DNA from: a phage
Length of the DNA: 64,000 bases
Sequence record: PZ445428.1
Direction: 5' to 3' (one strand)
Part shown: positions 16,980 to 52,622 of the stretch, one piece after another
Layout of the letters: each line of letters opens with the position of its first letter
Numbering within the stretch: the first letter of the stretch is position 1
Program-made: the position numbers and the translations under genes
Notes under the pieces: model-generated
Told to the model about the DNA's origin: nothing
What the model saw: the letters and a program-made list of their open reading frames with translations, nothing else
Database searches by the model: none

Positions 16980-17519
16980 CTATACCTTTAAGTTTTGAAG
17001 GGCTTTACACATTGCAAGATCAGGACTAAACTCCAGCATATAGCTGATAGCATTCAGATCCTGCATATTTATTCCAGTTCTACCATTGACAATAACTGTT
17101 GGATACTGGTACATCATAGCTCCAGCATCATCTAGGACACACCAGTGCTTGAGTTTGTACTTTTCCACAAACCGAAGAACAGAATTGCCTCTAGATAATC
17201 CACCACCAGTAAAATCAGTAGTACCAAGAAAACGATCAACCAGACCTAACGCGGTCATGATCTCAACATTCTCCACCTCGTTACGTACTGTAAACCATGA
17301 TGAAACCCCAACAATCATTATACCGGATGGTTTTAAGAAGTTCTGGAAAGCCTGTAGTAAAGGTTTGAAAACCCAGTCTCCACCAAAGAAGATCTTCTCT
17401 TCATCTGGAGCATGGTGGTGAGAGATGCTCGAATTGAGCACCCCATCAATATCCAGAAAAATAATTGGAGTATTACTTAGATCCACCGGATTTGTCCCAT
17501 TGCAGAGTTTTAGCTTCAT
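16980..17519 (-). CDS. HAD-superfamily phosphatase-like protein
   Basis: HAD motif I FLDIDGVL; motif II VGVSSW; later VLDDAG. Confidence 0.6.
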   Translation of the reverse strand: MKLKLCNGTNPVDLSNTPIIFLDIDGVLNSSISHHHAPDEEKIFFGGDWVFKPLLQAFQNFLKPSGIMIVGVSSWFTVRNEVENVEIMTALGLVDRFLGTTDFTGGGLSRGNSVLRFVEKYKLKHWCVLDDAGAMMYQYPTVIVNGRTGINMQDLNAISYMLEFSPDLAMCKALQNLKV

Positions 17520-17658
17520 CGGAGAAAGGAATATGGTAGTCTACCTTACCCTTACCAAACATAGCCGCCAAAAATACAGTATAGATAGTAATCATACCAA
17601 TCAGGTTTACAGTCCACACCAATACTTTCCAGATACCCTTAAAAATCTTCTTCACCAT
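17473..17658 (-). CDS. hypothetical small membrane protein
   Basis: 61 aa with one hydrophobic helix; overlaps the HAD gene start. Confidence 0.35.
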   Translation of the reverse strand: MVKKIFKGIWKVLVWTVNLIGMITIYTVFLAAMFGKGKVDYHIPFSDEAKTLQWDKSGGSK

Positions 17659-17821
17659 ATTCTTCCTCCTTAATCAGGAATTCTTTCCATTCTGCTGTAT
17701 CCTCATAGATAACGCAGAAATCATCACTCTTGCACGAGAAATCATCAGTAGCATATTCAAAACGGTAGCACCAACTACCATCTGGCCATACTAAAAGATC
17801 ACACATGCTTTTGCGGTGCAT
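17639..17821 (-). CDS. hypothetical small acidic protein
   Basis: 60-aa ORF overlapping neighbours by about 20 nt. Confidence 0.35.
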   Translation of the reverse strand: MHRKSMCDLLVWPDGSWCYRFEYATDDFSCKSDDFCVIYEDTAEWKEFLIKEEEYGEEDF

Positions 17822-18575
17822 AAATAGTTCCTTCCATAAAAGCCCCTACTTGGCCAATAAAGTGTTTGTTACCAAAAACTTCGGCAGCCCCAGCACGCCA
17901 TACAGTAACACCACGTTTCTCATACAAGGACTGTTCTAAGTAGTTGATAGTTGGGTTAACAACCATCATCTTAGTACCCCGTGCCACCGCAGGAAATAGT
18001 TCCCAGTTGAAGTTGATAACTTGGTTACTGCACCCAACCACGATAACCATATCATTAGCCGTAAGACTATCGAAAGTAGCGTTCATCAAAGCGTATTCAG
18101 GGGCTACTTCACCGAAGAATACAACGTTAGGCTTAGCCCAATAAAACTCATCAGGATCTATGGCAGTATAACCCACATCTAGGATATACTCTTTTCGATC
18201 TGGCAATTCCTTAATACGAACTTCTGGTAAATAACCATGAACGTGTAGAACTTCACTTTTTGGCACACCAGCCCTTTCCAGTAGATCATCCACGTTAGTA
18301 GTGATGTTCAGTACAGTCTCTGGATATCGTTGGAACCACTCCCCAATGCGGAGATGCGCAATGTTAGGTTCAACAGTCTGCAATTCCTGACGACGCTTGT
18401 TGTAGAACTCGTGGGTTTTCCAGTAGAACTGTCCACGGAAAGCATGAATATCACATACTTCTTCCAGATCGTATTCATCCCACATTGCCTTGCCACTAGC
18501 AGTATCTGTACGGAATGCACGGATACCACTATCAACACTTAAACCTGCACCACTAACAATAATTAGTCTACGCAT
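17799..18575 (-). CDS. SIR2-family (sirtuin-like) NAD-dependent protein
   Basis: N-terminal IVSGAGLSVDSGIRAFR matches the sirtuin GAGxSxxxGIPxFR NAD-binding motif. Confidence 0.65.
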   Translation of the reverse strand: MRRLIIVSGAGLSVDSGIRAFRTDTASGKAMWDEYDLEEVCDIHAFRGQFYWKTHEFYNKRRQELQTVEPNIAHLRIGEWFQRYPETVLNITTNVDDLLERAGVPKSEVLHVHGYLPEVRIKELPDRKEYILDVGYTAIDPDEFYWAKPNVVFFGEVAPEYALMNATFDSLTANDMVIVVGCSNQVINFNWELFPAVARGTKMMVVNPTINYLEQSLYEKRGVTVWRAGAAEVFGNKHFIGQVGAFMEGTIYAPQKHV

Positions 18576-19375: not shown

Positions 19376-21250
19376 TTATTTAGCGCGAACGTCTCTATGT
19401 TTCACTCGACCCATAACCTCATGTTGTTTACCAGGGTTAAAAGGACGTGCTCCTGGGTTCCCAAGATAACCACAAACTCGACGAGTTACCTCTAAAGTTT
19501 CAGGATCATGGTTTCCACAGATAGGACATTTGAATCCATCCTCAGAAGCGATAGTCTCACCCAAGAATCCACACTCACCACAGGAATCTACGGGGGTATT
19601 AATACCGAAGTAATGAACCTTACTTGCAGCATAATTAATAACCCATTCCAATGCATCAGGGAATTTCTTCATATCAGGTAATTCCACATAGGAAATGCAC
19701 CCACCAGAAGCAATTGGGGTAAAGTTAGACTCATAATCAAACTTCACGTTTGGAGCAACCTTACGTTCCACATCAAGGTGATGTGAGTTAGTATAGTATC
19801 CTTTACCAAGAATATCTTCATGCTCTGGGAAATATTCACGGTCTAGACGACAGAAGCGATCACATAGGGATTCAGAAGGCGTTGCATACAAACTGTACCC
19901 TAACTGAGTTTCTTCCTTCTTCTGATCTGCACGATCACGCATATATTGTAAAACACGCTGTACAAACTTAATGCAGGTGTCAGACATTGTATCTACATCC
20001 TTACCAAACATAAACTGTAACATTTCATGGCAGCCAATGTACCCTAGTGATACAGAAGCACGCTTGTAGAAATGATCAAACACATATTCATCGGGCCCCA
20101 GACGTAATCCAAAGGCTCCTGACATATAGAGGATGGGCGCAGCTTTAGCTTGAATGTATTTTAAGCGATCAACCCTCCACTCCAATGCTTTAAGTGCAGT
20201 ATCAACACGCAGCTCAAGCAGATCGAAAAACAGATCAATATCTCCATCGGCTTCGATAGCGATTCGAGGAAGGTTTACAGAAACGACACCTAAGTTATTA
20301 CGACCTGATGTTTCTCCATCTTCCGCAGCAGCTAAGAATGAGCGGCAGCCCATAGAAACTTTGTAGTCTCCAGTAACTTCAACTACCTTATCATAGCTGA
20401 TATAGTCAGGATACATACGTTCGGCAGTACACTTCATAGCTAACTTCTTGATATCGTAGTTTACATCACCAGGTTTCATATTAACGCCATCACGAAGTAC
20501 AAATACCAGTTTAGGGAAGATTGCAGTACGTTTATTGATACCCAGACCATCCATACGTACTTCTAGGATTGCTTTCTGTACAAGACGAGCTTCCCAAGAA
20601 GTTCCTAAACCAAAGCCAAAGGTGATAAAAGGACTCTGACCATTAGAGTTGAACATCGTATTGATCTCATACTCTAGACCCTGACAGGCGTCGTAAACTT
20701 CTTTCTCAGTCATTTCCGTAGCCATTACAGATGCTTTGGCTTCGTCCTTAGTCCAACGCTTAGCGAACGCATGGTTCTTATCATAAGATTTACGAACGTA
20801 AGGGGCTAATACTTCATCAAGACGGTCAACAGAAGTACCGCCATATTGATGGGAGCTAACCTGAGTAATAATCTGAGCTGTAATAGCAGCCGCAGTAGTG
20901 ATAGAATTTGGCGTACTGATTTCAGCATTACCAACCTTCATACCATTCTTCAACATATCTTCCAAAGCAACGAGGCAACAGTTAGTCATACCTAAAGCTG
21001 CATAGTCAGCATCGTGGAAGTGAATATCACCAATCATATGAGCATTTCGAATCTGAATCGGCATTTCTTCTAGAATCAGATACTTACTCAACTCACCTGC
21101 TAGCATATCCCTTTGAGTAGGGAAGCGTTCTGAAGGTTTATTGGCGTTATTAAACAGCAGCTCTTCATCTGCTGAACCTTCGATAATTTCCTTGCAGTTT
21201 GTAATTAAAGACTGCATTCTTTTAATCTTCATCTGATCATTGTGATTCAT
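19376..21250 (-). CDS. nrdD: anaerobic ribonucleoside-triphosphate reductase (class III)
   Basis: 624 aa; C-terminal Cys cluster and glycyl-radical motif RVCGYLG. Confidence 0.9.
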   Translation of the reverse strand: MNHNDQMKIKRMQSLITNCKEIIEGSADEELLFNNANKPSERFPTQRDMLAGELSKYLILEEMPIQIRNAHMIGDIHFHDADYAALGMTNCCLVALEDMLKNGMKVGNAEISTPNSITTAAAITAQIITQVSSHQYGGTSVDRLDEVLAPYVRKSYDKNHAFAKRWTKDEAKASVMATEMTEKEVYDACQGLEYEINTMFNSNGQSPFITFGFGLGTSWEARLVQKAILEVRMDGLGINKRTAIFPKLVFVLRDGVNMKPGDVNYDIKKLAMKCTAERMYPDYISYDKVVEVTGDYKVSMGCRSFLAAAEDGETSGRNNLGVVSVNLPRIAIEADGDIDLFFDLLELRVDTALKALEWRVDRLKYIQAKAAPILYMSGAFGLRLGPDEYVFDHFYKRASVSLGYIGCHEMLQFMFGKDVDTMSDTCIKFVQRVLQYMRDRADQKKEETQLGYSLYATPSESLCDRFCRLDREYFPEHEDILGKGYYTNSHHLDVERKVAPNVKFDYESNFTPIASGGCISYVELPDMKKFPDALEWVINYAASKVHYFGINTPVDSCGECGFLGETIASEDGFKCPICGNHDPETLEVTRRVCGYLGNPGARPFNPGKQHEVMGRVKHRDVRAK

Positions 21251-50276: not shown

Positions 50277-50329
50277 AACAGGCGACCGATAATCGTCAAA
50301 TCTTGGTTCGATCCCAAGTTGGAGTACCA
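50254..50329 (+). tRNA. tRNA-Ile (GAT)
   Basis: Acceptor GCTCCGA/TTGGAGT, D-arm GTTC...GAAC, anticodon arm GGCGA-CCGATAA-TCGTC, T-arm CTTGG-TTCGATC-CCAAG, CCA. Confidence 0.75.
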
Positions 50330-50373
50330 AAACAACGGAGAGTCACTACCGTAAGTGTGAAGTTGAAAAATAT

Positions 50374-50449
50374 AGTTAGTTGGCAGATCGGTTATGCACC
50401 TCCTTCATACGGAGCGATCAGAGTGGTTCGATTCCACTACTAACTACCA
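50374..50449 (+). tRNA. tRNA with CAT anticodon (third CAT tRNA)
   Basis: Acceptor AGTTAGT/ACTAACT, loop TTCATAC, T-arm AGTGG-TTCGATT-CCACT, CCA. Confidence 0.7.
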
Positions 50450-50818
50450 AACAGAAGATCAGGCCATAGTGCCAGATCCTGCTGAGAAGAGAGTCCACAT
50501 TCTATAAATGGACGGGCGTGACAGCAGGAAGTAGACTGCAACTCGATGCTATCTAAGAGTATAAATGTAGAAGCTAAGACTTTAGATAGTCATTGTCTTA
50601 GCGTGAGTAATCACGTAGTTGCAACAGACCAGGAAGATCGCAACGTTAAAATCAAAGCTCCTGTGCTTTTCTTCTTAATCGAGACCATCAATCTCACCGG
50701 AATGCTAGCACCCCAACAGTAGCTAGTGATTAAGAGAAAAGCAAACCTGCCTTCCAGTTTTTATCTTGCTTCTGGGTTATCAAAAAGCTGAGCCAATTTC
50801 TAACATCAGGGAGATCTA

Positions 50819-51187
50819 ATGAAAGCATATCAAAGTCTTAAATCCGGCGTAATTAACCTTGTTCATGACAATCAGATCATTCAGCTATACTCTAAAGACG
50901 GCGAACTTAAACAGAAAGTTCTAGTTGAAGATCTAGAAGGTATCACACCTCACTTTGATCCTGAAGCCTTCCGCATCGTGGATGTTAAAGTAGTTCCTCA
51001 AGTCGAGGGTGGTCAACACCTAAATGTCAACGTATTAAGTCGTGATCAGCTTTTGGATGCTCAGAAACATCCTGAAAAATATCCTCAGTTGACCATTCGT
51101 GTCTCTGGTTATGCTGTTCGATTTAATGCACTGACGCGTGAACAACAGAACGACGTTATTAGTCGTACATTTACTCAGGCGATCTAA
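50819..51187 (+). CDS. grcA: autonomous glycyl-radical cofactor (GrcA/YfiD-like)
   Basis: [12 protein letters not shown]...[37 protein letters not shown] is near-identical in pattern to E. coli GrcA, including the RVSGY glycyl-radical motif. Confidence 0.8.
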
Positions 51188-51268
51188 TGGGGTTTGGATA
51201 CGATTTCTCCCAGCTACGCAAGGTAGTCGAGCAAACTCCATTTATCTCCGAAGTTTTAGGAGAACTTA

Positions 51269-51568
51269 GTGGACAGAGCATTAAGACGTCACCACCGTCA
51301 ACGTGTCAAGAACAATCGCAAGAAGTATTGGACAGTCTTCCCTCATGAAGAAAGTCCTAAACGGTTAGGTATTATTACTACCACTCCTTGTATTTGCTCT
51401 TGCTGGATGTGTGGCAACCCACGCAAATACTATAAAAATAGTAAAGCAGCAATGAAAATCTCGGAGATTAAAAAGATGGATTCAGGATATAATGAAATCA
51501 CGTTTACAGGTGGTATCTCTGATGAGTTCGATGGTTTTGTATCACAAGACGTTATCGAAATTATCTAA
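51269..51568 (+). CDS. minimal radical-SAM activase, NrdG-like
   Basis: GTG start; FPHEESPKRLGIITTTPCICSCWMCGNP carries a CxxxCxxC cluster and aligns with the NrdG N-terminus; TFTGGISDEF resembles the SGGDP region. Confidence 0.5.
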   Translation: MDRALRRHHRQRVKNNRKKYWTVFPHEESPKRLGIITTTPCICSCWMCGNPRKYYKNSKAAMKISEIKKMDSGYNEITFTGGISDEFDGFVSQDVIEII

Positions 51569-51634
51569 TTAAATAACAAACCCCGGCTATTGAATAAGTA
51601 GTTGGGGTTTTCTTATATACACAGGATTTTCAAA

Positions 51635-51820
51635 ATGAAAATTTTTAAAGTGAACTACCGTGGACTATGGTTAGGTGGTACAGCTATTGTTGTTGCGGAA
51701 ACTGCGGAAAAAGCAATCGAACTGGCTAGAAACCATAGATCTTCTATAGAGTTTGAAGGTGTGACAGTAGAAGAACTCCCTAGCAGTGGGGTAGTATACA
51801 ACGATAACGGGAATTACTGA
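51635..51820 (+). CDS. hypothetical protein
   Basis: 61 aa from an internal Met. Confidence 0.4.
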   Translation: MKIFKVNYRGLWLGGTAIVVAETAEKAIELARNHRSSIEFEGVTVEELPSSGVVYNDNGNY

Positions 51821-51877
51821 TGTTATATTTTAAAGTTCGACCACATTAAGTTAATTCACAGACTTAATGGAGAAAAT

Positions 51878-52273
51878 ATGAGCCGTACTTATCGCAAACA
51901 ATCTGGAAATCATTACTGGCGTGACAAACATCGTTGCACTTATAACTTCCACAGCACTAATGTGCGTATTCCCTATGTTTACACAGATCGTGAAGGTAAA
52001 CAGTGGAAATACTACAAAGTTCGCTCTAATGAAGCATGGGCTATGTCTTGGGATGAAGTTGATGCAGAAATTCAGGAAGGCATCCTGAATAACGAAAAGA
52101 AAGATGGTCACTGGTGGGATTCTATCAACCAGAGTGTTAAATGGCACTCTAACAAAATGGTTCGACAGGGAAATCGCCGTGAGTTACATCGTGTAATGAA
52201 AGATCCAGAAAATTACGACTACAATCGAGATCACGACCTTCGTAAGAAAGGCATCTGGTGGATCTACGACTAA
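51878..52273 (+). CDS. hypothetical protein
   Basis: 131-aa ORF, Trp/His-rich. Confidence 0.5.
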   Translation: MSRTYRKQSGNHYWRDKHRCTYNFHSTNVRIPYVYTDREGKQWKYYKVRSNEAWAMSWDEVDAEIQEGILNNEKKDGHWWDSINQSVKWHSNKMVRQGNRRELHRVMKDPENYDYNRDHDLRKKGIWWIYD

Positions 52274-52349: not shown

Positions 52350-52622
52350 ATGAAAGAAGCAGAAATTAATGAAATGGCTAGGGTTTTCGTAGTTTCCTAT
52401 ATGCAAGGTAGCTGCAATAGTCTTTTCGATTCAGCAGTAGTATTTCAGGAAGAATTAGCTGAGAAAGGTATACATATGGAAGATACTGAAATTGAGGATC
52501 TTCTGATGGAAGCTGCAAGTAGTGCAGAAGTATTCTTGTGTGATAATTGTGGTTGGTGGTGTCCTGAGCATGACCGTTCTGAAGAAGGCTCTTACTGTTC
52601 TGACTGTGAGGGAGAAGAATAA
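52350..52622 (+). CDS. acidic protein with C-terminal zinc ribbon
   Basis: CDNCGWWCPEH...CSDCEG; 90 aa. Confidence 0.5.
   Translation: MKEAEINEMARVFVVSYMQGSCNSLFDSAVVFQEELAEKGIHMEDTEIEDLLMEAASSAEVFLCDNCGWWCPEHDRSEEGSYCSDCEGEE

What the first reader, a model, noticed from the sequence alone, without database searches (positions are those of the whole stretch)
50819..51568. GrcA-like glycyl-radical cofactor next to a minimal NrdG-like activase, 30 kb from nrdD
The 122-aa protein matches the E. coli autonomous glycyl-radical cofactor GrcA/YfiD including RVSGY, as reported for T4 Y06I. The adjacent 99-aa ORF has a CxxxCxxC cluster and aligns with the NrdG N-terminus but is much shorter than canonical NrdG. 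nrdD itself (19376-21250) has no adjacent activase gene.
Basis: partly seen in the sequence, partly recalled or inferred. Interest (0 to 1): 0.6.

Follow-up and report, generated by a model that had tools for sequence, protein, structure and literature searches.

The report
Phage GrcA spare part; no activase
This T5-like phage carries an already-annotated copy of the small "spare part" protein that repairs oxygen-damaged pyruvate formate-lyase, and the cysteine-rich gene next to it belongs to an unrelated, widespread family of tiny phage proteins of unknown function, so it is not a miniature radical-generating activase.

Summary
The window is Escherichia phage TrudiGerster, a T5-like phage (Demerecviridae). 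Three parts of the finding hold.
- The 122-aa ORF at 50819-51187 is a genuine GrcA/YfiD-type autonomous glycyl-radical protein with RVSG97Y. Its C-terminal domain is 79-85% identical to the C-termini of E. coli GrcA, PflB and TdcE. Other T5-like records already annotate this gene as grcA or pyruvate formate-lyase.
- The 99-aa ORF at 51269-51568 is a real gene, shown by third-codon-position variation. GenBank mis-calls this stretch as two 53-aa ORFs.
- nrdD has no activase next to it, and none exists anywhere in the genome. This is a published feature of T5-like phages.

The "minimal NrdG-like activase" reading fails.
- Similarity to NrdG and PflA is confined to the cysteine cluster and is at chance level (hhalign probability 0.1%).
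- The first Cys of CxxxCxxC is present in only about a third of family members. The conserved motif is CxCxxC.
- The "ITFTGG" stretch lies in a variable acidic tail.
- The family (phrog_4499, about 2,150 clusters at 50% identity; the best 150 are 69-183 aa) occurs in many unrelated phages with no GrcA or NrdD nearby.
- More than 1,000 phage records, T4-likes among them, carry GrcA without this gene.

The GrcA-like protein is most likely activated by host PflA, and the phage NrdD by host NrdG. This is ordinary and of low interest.

The parts
50819..51187 (+). GrcA/YfiD-type autonomous glycyl-radical protein, 122 aa. Residues 1-60 are a phage-type N-terminal region. Residues 61-122 are the glycyl-radical domain, with the radical site at Gly97 in RVSGY.
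   Evidence: Pfam Gly_radical 4e-18. phrog_1209 over the full length, 9e-47. NCBIfam GrcA 2.3e-34, but 118 bits against a cutoff of 170. PDB 6OWR and PflB. Identity of the C-domain: 85% to TdcE, 79% to GrcA, 78% to PflB. Variable sites by codon position across 30 T5-like genomes: 17/6/71.
51188..51268 (+). Conserved 81-nt leader between the two genes. It carries the AGGAG ribosome-binding site of the downstream gene. GenBank annotates it as the first half of a 53-aa ORF (51187..51348), which is probably not a real gene.
   Evidence: Against the GSP001-type phage there are only 2 substitutions in 78 nt, both nonsynonymous in the annotated frame and none synonymous. In the same comparison 18% of GrcA third positions differ. 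Variable sites in that frame are 8/3/7, with no third-position bias. Predicted hairpins include one that covers the SD, dG -31 kcal/mol, z -2.08. Covariation support is weak.
51269..51568 (+). Small basic, Cys-rich protein, 99 aa, GTG start, member of phrog_4499 (T5 ORF053 / T5.055). It has an Arg-rich N-terminal helix, the motif TP-x-x-C-S-C-W-M-C-G-N-P-R-K, and a variable acidic tail. It is not a radical-SAM activase.
   Evidence: phrog_4499 8e-36. Third-position bias 3/2/17, 2/1/13 and 7/8/19 in its frame. Start codon and RBS are conserved. Family alignments. 2,156 cluster representatives, the best 150 being 69-183 aa. No Pfam family.
51578..51610 (+). Intrinsic-terminator-like hairpin followed by a T run, closing the GrcA-like / small-gene unit.
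   Evidence: 14-pair stem, 5 of them G-C, followed by TCTTATATAC.
19376..21250 (-). nrdD, class III ribonucleotide reductase, 624 aa. It lacks the N-terminal ~85 residues of E. coli NrdD and has no phage activase.
   Evidence: NCBIfam NF006732, 842 bits. 52% identical to E. coli NrdD residues 86-705, with a near-identical glycyl-radical tail. No NrdG-like ORF in the window or in the rest of the genome.

Best explanation
Two unrelated genes sit side by side and are probably co-transcribed in the tRNA-rich early region of a T5-like phage.

(1) The 122-aa protein is a phage version of the GrcA/YfiD 'spare part'. When oxygen cleaves the host's activated pyruvate formate-lyase (and probably TdcE) at the radical glycine, the protein's C-terminal domain (residues 61-122) replaces the lost C-terminal glycyl-radical domain. 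The host activase PflA then installs the radical on Gly97, which restores the conversion of pyruvate to acetyl-CoA and formate, and so energy supply, in microaerobic infected cells. The homology is shown here. The mechanism is inferred from the experimentally validated E. coli YfiD and T4 Y06I.

(2) The 99-aa protein belongs to a large, uncurated family of small phage proteins (phrog_4499). These have an arginine-rich N-terminal helix and a conserved CxCxxC cluster. My best guess is a small metal-binding (probably zinc) protein that binds nucleic acid or has a regulatory role. It has no specific link to glycyl-radical enzymes.

(3) The phage encodes no activase at all. Its NrdD, whose glycyl-radical tail is almost identical to that of E. 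coli NrdD, presumably relies on host NrdG.
For: GrcA identity. Purifying selection on the gene. The same gene occurs in about 1,580 phage records and is annotated grcA or pyruvate formate-lyase in several T5-likes and T4-likes (vs.6). YfiD and T4 Y06I are activated by the host PFL-AE and rescue cleaved PFL (PMC8683613, citing Wagner et al. 2001).

Small gene is real. Small gene is not an activase:
- No Pfam hit.
- phmmer with T4 NrdG, E 1.5.
- BLASTP and shuffle tests.
- hhalign probability 0.1%.
- No relative in the PDB.
- C41 is present in about a third of 30 diverse members, while C43 and C48 are invariant and C45 is nearly invariant.
- The 'ITFTGG' region is indel-rich even among T5-likes.
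- Weak radical-SAM hits appear in only 4 of 21 members.
- The 150 best of 2,156 representatives are 69-183 aa.
- The AlphaFold model is all-helical, at low confidence.

Independence of the two genes: about 50 non-T5 viral loci carry the small gene with no GrcA or NrdD within 3 kb and no shared neighbour family. A further locus has Cpn10 and a DNA methylase as neighbours. GrcA is found in 1,584 phage records against 490 for the small gene, and only the 438 T5-like records appear to have both. The neighbours of T4 vs.6 are unrelated to the small gene.

No activase in the genome. nrdD-only plus nrdAB with phoH between them is described for T5, EPS7 and SPC35 (PMC3653736). NrdD tail similarity.
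Against: No experiment exists for the T5-type GrcA. It scores below NCBIfam's GrcA equivalog cutoff (118 against 170 bits), because its N-terminal 60 residues differ from E. coli GrcA, and that region matters for activation by PFL-AE (PMC8683613). The two genes are adjacent in every T5-like genome examined and share a terminator, so some functional coupling within this lineage cannot be excluded. One weak radical-SAM hit (HxsC, E 0.0014) is nominally below 0.01. The function of the small protein is a guess: metal binding and nucleic-acid binding were not tested, and the structure models are of low confidence (pLDDT 52 and 66).
Confidence: 0.8

Rival explanations
1. One reading: the 99-aa protein is a minimal NrdG-like radical-SAM activase that activates the phage GrcA and/or the distant orphan NrdD.
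For: A CxxxCxxC string is present. It is the only real ORF in the genome with that motif. There are weak hits to radical-SAM models: HxsC E 0.0014, CofH 0.024, phrog_14086 0.023. It is adjacent to GrcA in all T5-likes. The phage has nrdD but no nrdG.
Against: The first Cys of the motif is not conserved in the family. The GGE-like stretch lies in a variable tail that many close homologues lack. There is no significant similarity to NrdG or PflA. At 99 aa it is too short for the SAM-binding partial barrel, whereas phage NrdGs down to 35% identity still cover more than 80% of the 156-aa T4 NrdG. The family occurs without GrcA or NrdD, and GrcA occurs without the family. YfiD and Y06I are known to use the host PFL-AE.
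Confidence: 0.02
2. The small ORF is a decayed remnant of a once full-length activase gene.
For: It shows short, weak radical-SAM-like matches and sits in a region full of small ORFs.
Against: There is clear third-position bias. The start codon and RBS are conserved. The family has 2,156 clusters, and all 150 listed representatives are small stand-alone proteins with no long radical-SAM protein among them.
Confidence: 0.01
3. The annotated 53-aa ORF 51187..51348 (bas27_0141, phrog_31464) is a real gene that overlaps the start of the small gene.
For: The ORF is open in all 31 T5-like loci inspected. Its ATG overlaps the GrcA stop codon (TAATG). Its first 26 residues are nearly invariant. It has its own PHROG.
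Against: In the overlap, variation falls on its first codon position (17/3/2), which means selection acts on the other frame. In its unique part there is no third-position bias (8/3/7). Against the most diverged relative, both changes are nonsynonymous and none is synonymous. One independent gene call omits it.
Confidence: 0.15
4. The GrcA-like protein is a spare part for the phage's own NrdD rather than for host PFL or TdcE.
For: The phage carries an oxygen-sensitive NrdD. The literature notes that spare parts for other glycyl-radical enzymes are conceivable.
Against: The C-domain is 78-85% identical to the PflB and TdcE C-termini and has no significant similarity to the phage NrdD (E 2.5). 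Its motif is RVSGY, against RVCGY in NrdD.
Confidence: 0.04

Closest known systems
E. coli GrcA (YfiD) and phage T4 Y06I (vs.6), autonomous glycyl-radical cofactors
   Same: A stand-alone protein of about 120 aa. The C-terminal 62 residues are 79% identical to GrcA and 77% to RB27 vs.6, with the RVSGYAVRF radical motif. The overall layout is an N-terminal region of about 60 residues followed by a glycyl-radical domain. The N-terminus shares 'MKAYQ' with T4-like vs.6, and phrog_1209 matches over the full length.
   Different: The C-domain is closest to TdcE (85%) rather than GrcA, whereas the T4-like vs.6 C-domain is 97% identical to E. coli GrcA. The N-terminal 60 residues show no significant similarity to E. 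coli GrcA, and the protein scores below NCBIfam's GrcA cutoff. It has not been tested biochemically.
NrdG / PflA glycyl-radical activating enzymes (radical SAM)
   Same: Only a CxxxCxxC string in this particular sequence, plus a preceding hydrophobic stretch.
   Different: There is no significant sequence or profile similarity. The motif is not conserved in homologues. No SAM-binding motifs are conserved. The length is 99 aa, against 154-156 aa for NrdG and 246 aa for PflA. The predicted structure is all-helical. The gene is not next to nrdD.
phrog_4499 (T5 ORF053 / T5.055 family), function unknown
   Same: Full-length match at 8e-36. All 30 diverse relatives tested also match it. They share the R-A-x-R-R-H-H-x-x-R-x-K-x-x-R helix and the TPxxCSCWMCGNPRK motif.
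   Different: T5-like members carry an extra, variable acidic C-terminal tail. There is no Pfam model and no experimental characterisation.

Membership tests
GrcA/YfiD autonomous glycyl-radical cofactor | C-terminal glycyl-radical domain homologous to PflB 696-759, with the RVSGY radical glycine | tested here: met
   Pfam Gly_radical 4e-18. 6OWR 5.7e-29 and PflB 698-758 1.7e-26. Gly97, 78-85% identity.
GrcA/YfiD autonomous glycyl-radical cofactor | Small stand-alone protein without the 10-stranded catalytic barrel | tested here: met
   122-aa ORF bounded by stop codons, under purifying selection.
GrcA/YfiD autonomous glycyl-radical cofactor | Scores above the curated NCBIfam equivalog cutoff (TIGR04365) | tested here: not met
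   118.4 bits against a cutoff of 170. Only residues 54-121 match, and the N-terminal half is phage-specific. It does match the phage family phrog_1209 over its full length.
GrcA/YfiD autonomous glycyl-radical cofactor | Radical installation by PFL-AE and rescue of oxygen-cleaved PFL | not testable with these tools
   Shown for YfiD and T4 Y06I only (PMC8683613).
NrdG/PflA radical-SAM activase | CxxxCxxC cluster conserved across homologues | tested here: not met
   The first Cys (C41) is present in about a third of 30 diverse members. The conserved triad is C43-x-C45-x-x-C48.
NrdG/PflA radical-SAM activase | Significant sequence or profile similarity to known activases or radical-SAM models | tested here: not met
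   No Pfam hit at E<1. phmmer E 1.5. hhalign probability 0.1%. BLASTP E 0.35-0.8 over the Cys cluster only. Sporadic weak NCBIfam hits in 4 of 21 members.
NrdG/PflA radical-SAM activase | SAM-binding motifs (GGE and others) and a partial TIM-barrel core of at least ~150 aa | tested here: not met
   The 'ITFTGG' stretch lies in an indel-rich tail that most homologues lack. The best 150 family representatives are 69-183 aa. The model is all-helical, pLDDT 66. Foldseek against the PDB finds no match.
NrdG/PflA radical-SAM activase | Genomic association with its glycyl-radical substrate across lineages | tested here: not met
   About 50 non-T5 loci lack GrcA and NrdD nearby. T4-likes have GrcA without this gene.
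phrog_4499 small Cys-rich phage proteins | Full-length profile match and the shared RRHHR...CSCWMCGNPRK signature | tested here: met
   8e-36 over residues 1-87. Alignments. Profile search.

The most novel reading that the evidence does not exclude
Within T5-like phages, the phrog_4499 protein has been recruited as a metal-binding accessory that tunes how host activases (PflA, NrdG) act on the phage's GrcA or its orphan NrdD, for example as an adaptor or a regulator. Its translation would be gated by the unusually conserved leader that can sequester its ribosome-binding site. Strict adjacency and a shared terminator in all T5-likes are compatible with this. The wide distribution of the family without any glycyl-radical gene argues that the adjacency is lineage-specific synteny only.
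Probability: 0.03. Interest if true: 0.6.

Novelty: already known. Interest (0 to 1): 0.15.

Why it matters
A 99-aa radical-SAM activase would have been a remarkable minimal enzyme, and it would have explained how T5-like phages use an orphan NrdD. The evidence says it is not one. What remains is modest.
- The GenBank annotation needs correcting: one 99-aa gene instead of two 53-aa ORFs.
- T5-like phages depend on host PflA and NrdG for their glycyl-radical proteins.
- A large family of small CxCxxC phage proteins (about 2,150 clusters at 50% identity) has no Pfam model and no known function.

Tried and rejected
- AlphaFold2 of the 99-aa protein with 21 and with 30 homologues gave pLDDT 52 and 66. 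This is too low for fold assignment. Foldseek against the PDB returned nothing.
- hmmsearch of the family profile against PDB sequences found only a chance hit to cellulose synthase, E 0.67.
- Pfam and PHROG scans of 30 diverse family members gave no annotated family.
- Cluster look-up for 10 representatives gave only 'hypothetical protein'.
- All-against-all clustering of neighbours in about 50 non-T5 loci found no neighbour family shared beyond one prophage clade.
- Rfam on 50300-52000 found nothing.
- The covariation check of the leader hairpins was inconclusive because there is too little variation.
- The simple sigma-70 scan found no plus-strand promoter near the genes.
- A literature search for T5 nrdG gave only the general statement that T5-type phages carry nrdD without nrdG.
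- I considered whether T4's vs.5 or vs.7 might be counterparts of the small gene. They show no similarity to it.

Full report
**Source and context.** The 1.4-kb stretch is 100% identical to Escherichia phage TrudiGerster (MZ501108.1). This is a T5-like phage of Demerecviridae, genus Epseptimavirus, with a 114-kb genome. The finding lies at the end of the tRNA-rich early region. In that record the GrcA-like ORF is annotated 'putative formate acetyltransferase'.

**The GrcA-like gene (50819-51187).**
- The product matches Pfam Gly_radical (4e-18, residues 62-103) and phrog_1209 over its whole length (9e-47).
- It matches the solved structure of E. coli GrcA (6OWR, 5.7e-29) and PflB residues 698-758 (1.7e-26).
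- The radical glycine is Gly97 in RVSGY.
- Residues 61-122 are 85% identical to the C-terminus of E. coli TdcE, 79% to GrcA, 78% to PflB and 77% to the T4-like vs.6 protein.
- The N-terminal 60 residues show no significant similarity to E. coli GrcA. They resemble the T4-like vs.6 N-terminus weakly (38% over 42 residues, shared MKAYQ start).
- Because of this N-terminus the protein stays below NCBIfam's GrcA equivalog cutoff (118 against 170 bits).
- Across 30 distinct T5-like sequences the variable sites fall 17/6/71 on codon positions 1/2/3, so the gene is under purifying selection.
- tblastn finds the gene in 1,584 phage records. In 438 of them identity is at least 80% (T5-likes). More than 1,000 are T4-likes and jumbo phages, where the gene is vs.6. 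Several records already call it grcA, pyruvate formate-lyase or autonomous glycyl radical cofactor.
- The literature states that YfiD and T4 Y06I are the two validated spare-part proteins. The host activase PFL-AE installs the radical, and the proteins rescue oxygen-cleaved PFL (PMC8683613, citing Wagner et al. 2001).

This half of the finding is correct and already known.

**Which ORF is real downstream of it.**
- In the 80-nt overlap between the annotated 53-aa ORF and the 99-aa ORF, variable sites fall 3/2/17 on the codon positions of the 99-aa frame. In the 53-aa frame 17 of the 22 fall on position 1.
- The bias continues through 51349-51406 (2/1/13) and 51407-51480 (7/8/19).
- The GTG (once ATG) start at 51269, with AGGAG eight bases upstream, is conserved in all T5-like loci.
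- All homologous proteins begin with the same M-[DN]-R-A-L-R-R-H-H sequence.

The 99-aa gene is therefore real, and 51407..51568 is a truncated call of it.

The unique part of the annotated 53-aa ORF (51187-51268) shows no third-position bias (8/3/7). Against the most diverged T5-like relative it has two substitutions in 78 nt. Both are nonsynonymous and none is synonymous, although 18% of GrcA third positions differ in the same comparison. I read it as a conserved leader, not a gene. It can fold into a long hairpin plus a small hairpin that covers the ribosome-binding site (dG -31 kcal/mol, z -2.08). There is too little variation to test covariation. A strong terminator-like hairpin follows the 99-aa gene.

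**Is the 99-aa protein an NrdG-like activase?** The literal string C41-x3-C45-x2-C48 is present. Among real ORFs it is unique in the genome. Everything else argues against the idea.

(a) Similarity:
- No Pfam family at E<1.
- phmmer with T4 NrdG scores this ORF at E 1.5, among unrelated ORFs.
- BLASTP against E. coli NrdG and PflA aligns only the Cys cluster (E 0.8 and 0.35).
- Smith-Waterman scores against those two are ordinary for shuffled sequence. T4 NrdG is marginal (3 of 500 shuffles), which I attribute to cysteine-cysteine scores.
- As a control, T4 NrdG finds E. coli NrdG at 8e-52 and PflA at 1.7e-13.
- hhalign of the family profile against T4 NrdG gives probability 0.1%.
- The weak NCBIfam and PHROG radical-SAM hits (E 0.0014-0.024) depend on this sequence's own tail. 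They appear in only 4 of 21 homologues.

(b) Conservation:
- In 21 close to moderately distant homologues, the region containing 'ITFTGG' (the supposed GGE motif) is an indel-rich acidic tail that most lack.
- In 30 diverse family members the invariant residues are R17, T39, C43, C48 and R52.
- Nearly invariant are R3, R7, H9, R12, P40, S44, C45, G49, N50 and E66.
- The first Cys of the radical-SAM motif, C41, is replaced by A, T, K, H, I or Q in about two-thirds of them.
- The family signature is therefore CxCxxC inside TPxxCSCWMCGNPRK, not CxxxCxxC.

(c) Size and fold:
- A profile search of 1.84 billion representatives finds 2,156 clusters (519 at E<=1e-10).
- The best 150 are all 69-183 aa, and none is a long radical-SAM enzyme.
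- Phage NrdGs down to 35% identity still cover more than 80% of the 156-aa T4 protein.
- AlphaFold models are all-helical but of low confidence (pLDDT 52 and 66). They have no PDB fold match.

(d) Context:
- All 31 T5-like loci have GrcA followed by the small gene.
- None of about 50 unrelated viral contigs (GC 31-62%) that carry a homologue has GrcA or NrdD within 3 kb.
- Those contigs share no other neighbour family. One further locus has Cpn10 and a DNA methylase as neighbours.
- In the isolate collection the small gene occurs in 490 records, 438 of them at T5-like level. This equals the number of T5-like GrcA records, although the two counts come from separate searches and not from a join. 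Other carriers include Erwinia and Rhizobium jumbo phages.
- GrcA occurs in more than 1,000 further records without it.
- In T4-like phages, vs.6 is flanked by vs.5 and vs.7, which are unrelated to the small gene. T4's nrdG sits beside nrdD, about 17 kb away.

The two genes are independent, and their adjacency is synteny within one phage lineage.

**The orphan nrdD.**
- nrdD at 19376-21250 is a bona fide class III reductase (842 bits).
- It is 52% identical to E. coli NrdD residues 86-705, so it lacks the N-terminal ~85 residues. Its glycyl-radical tail is almost identical to the host's (VTRRVCGYLG-P-ARPFN-GKQ-EV--RVKH).
- Its neighbours are Sir2, HAD, PhoH, DUF7430 and three small ORFs with no Pfam hit.
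- No NrdG-like ORF or further CxxxCxxC ORF exists in the window or the rest of the genome.
- Dwivedi et al. [quoted passage not shown]

Dependence on host NrdG is the obvious inference.

**What the small protein may do.** Residues 1-60 are very basic (pI 10.4, 15 K+R) and carry the Cys cluster. Residues 61-99 are acidic (pI 4.1). An arginine-rich helix plus a conserved CxCxxC and a nearly invariant His suggests a small metal-binding, nucleic-acid-binding or regulatory protein. This is inference only. No database names the family.

**Verdict.** The GrcA part is right but already known and annotated. The leftovers are minor: a mis-annotation, a conserved leader and an uncharacterised small-protein family.

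Noticed in passing
window 51187-51568: The GenBank annotation (bas27_0141 at 51187..51348 and bas27_0142 at 51407..51568) appears wrong. Codon-position variation supports a single 99-aa gene at 51269..51568 with a GTG start.
   Followed up: yes
window 51186-51268: The leader between the GrcA-like gene and the small gene is more conserved than neutral sites nearby: 2 changes in 78 nt, against 18% at GrcA third positions. It can form a long hairpin plus a hairpin (UCUCC...GGAGA) that sequesters the Shine-Dalgarno sequence. It may be a translational control element.
   Followed up: partly
window 19376-21250 (-): The phage NrdD aligns to E. coli NrdD residues 86-705 at 52% identity, so it lacks the N-terminal ~85 residues (the ATP-cone region of the host enzyme, from general knowledge). 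The whole phage genome has no nrdG.
   Followed up: partly
window 50999-51187: The glycyl-radical domain of the T5-type protein is closest to host TdcE (85% aa; best DNA hit in all 5,426 E. coli genomes is tdcE at ~76%). The T4-like vs.6 domain is 97% identical to host GrcA. This suggests separate acquisitions or gene conversion of the C-terminal domain on a shared phage-type N-terminus.
   Followed up: partly
window 51878-52273 (+): A 131-aa protein that matches DUF7295 over its full length (7e-57) and phrog_5021. It has a basic N-terminus and unknown function. It diverges sharply (about 52-55% identity) between T5-like subgroups, while the flanking genes stay above 90%.
   Followed up: no
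window 16980-18575 (-): A Sir2-family protein (258 aa, 2e-23) and a HAD-domain protein of the 'Swiss Army Knife RNA repair' type (179 aa, 9e-19) lie downstream of nrdD on the same strand.
   Followed up: no
L058-L080 (IMG/VR prophage-like contigs, GC ~0.34): In one clade of low-GC prophage-like contigs, the phrog_4499 homologue sits downstream of a conserved 122-aa ORF and a cysteine-rich ORF that I judged by eye to resemble NinG, and upstream of small ORFs with hydrophobic stretches. None of these neighbours was run through a family search. If my reading is right, the gene lies near the junction between the regulatory and lysis regions of a lambdoid genome.
   Followed up: no
window 52350-52622 (+): A 90-aa acidic ORF ending in CDNCGWWCPEH...CSDCEGEE, a four-Cys zinc-ribbon-like cluster. 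It is annotated as hypothetical.
   Followed up: no
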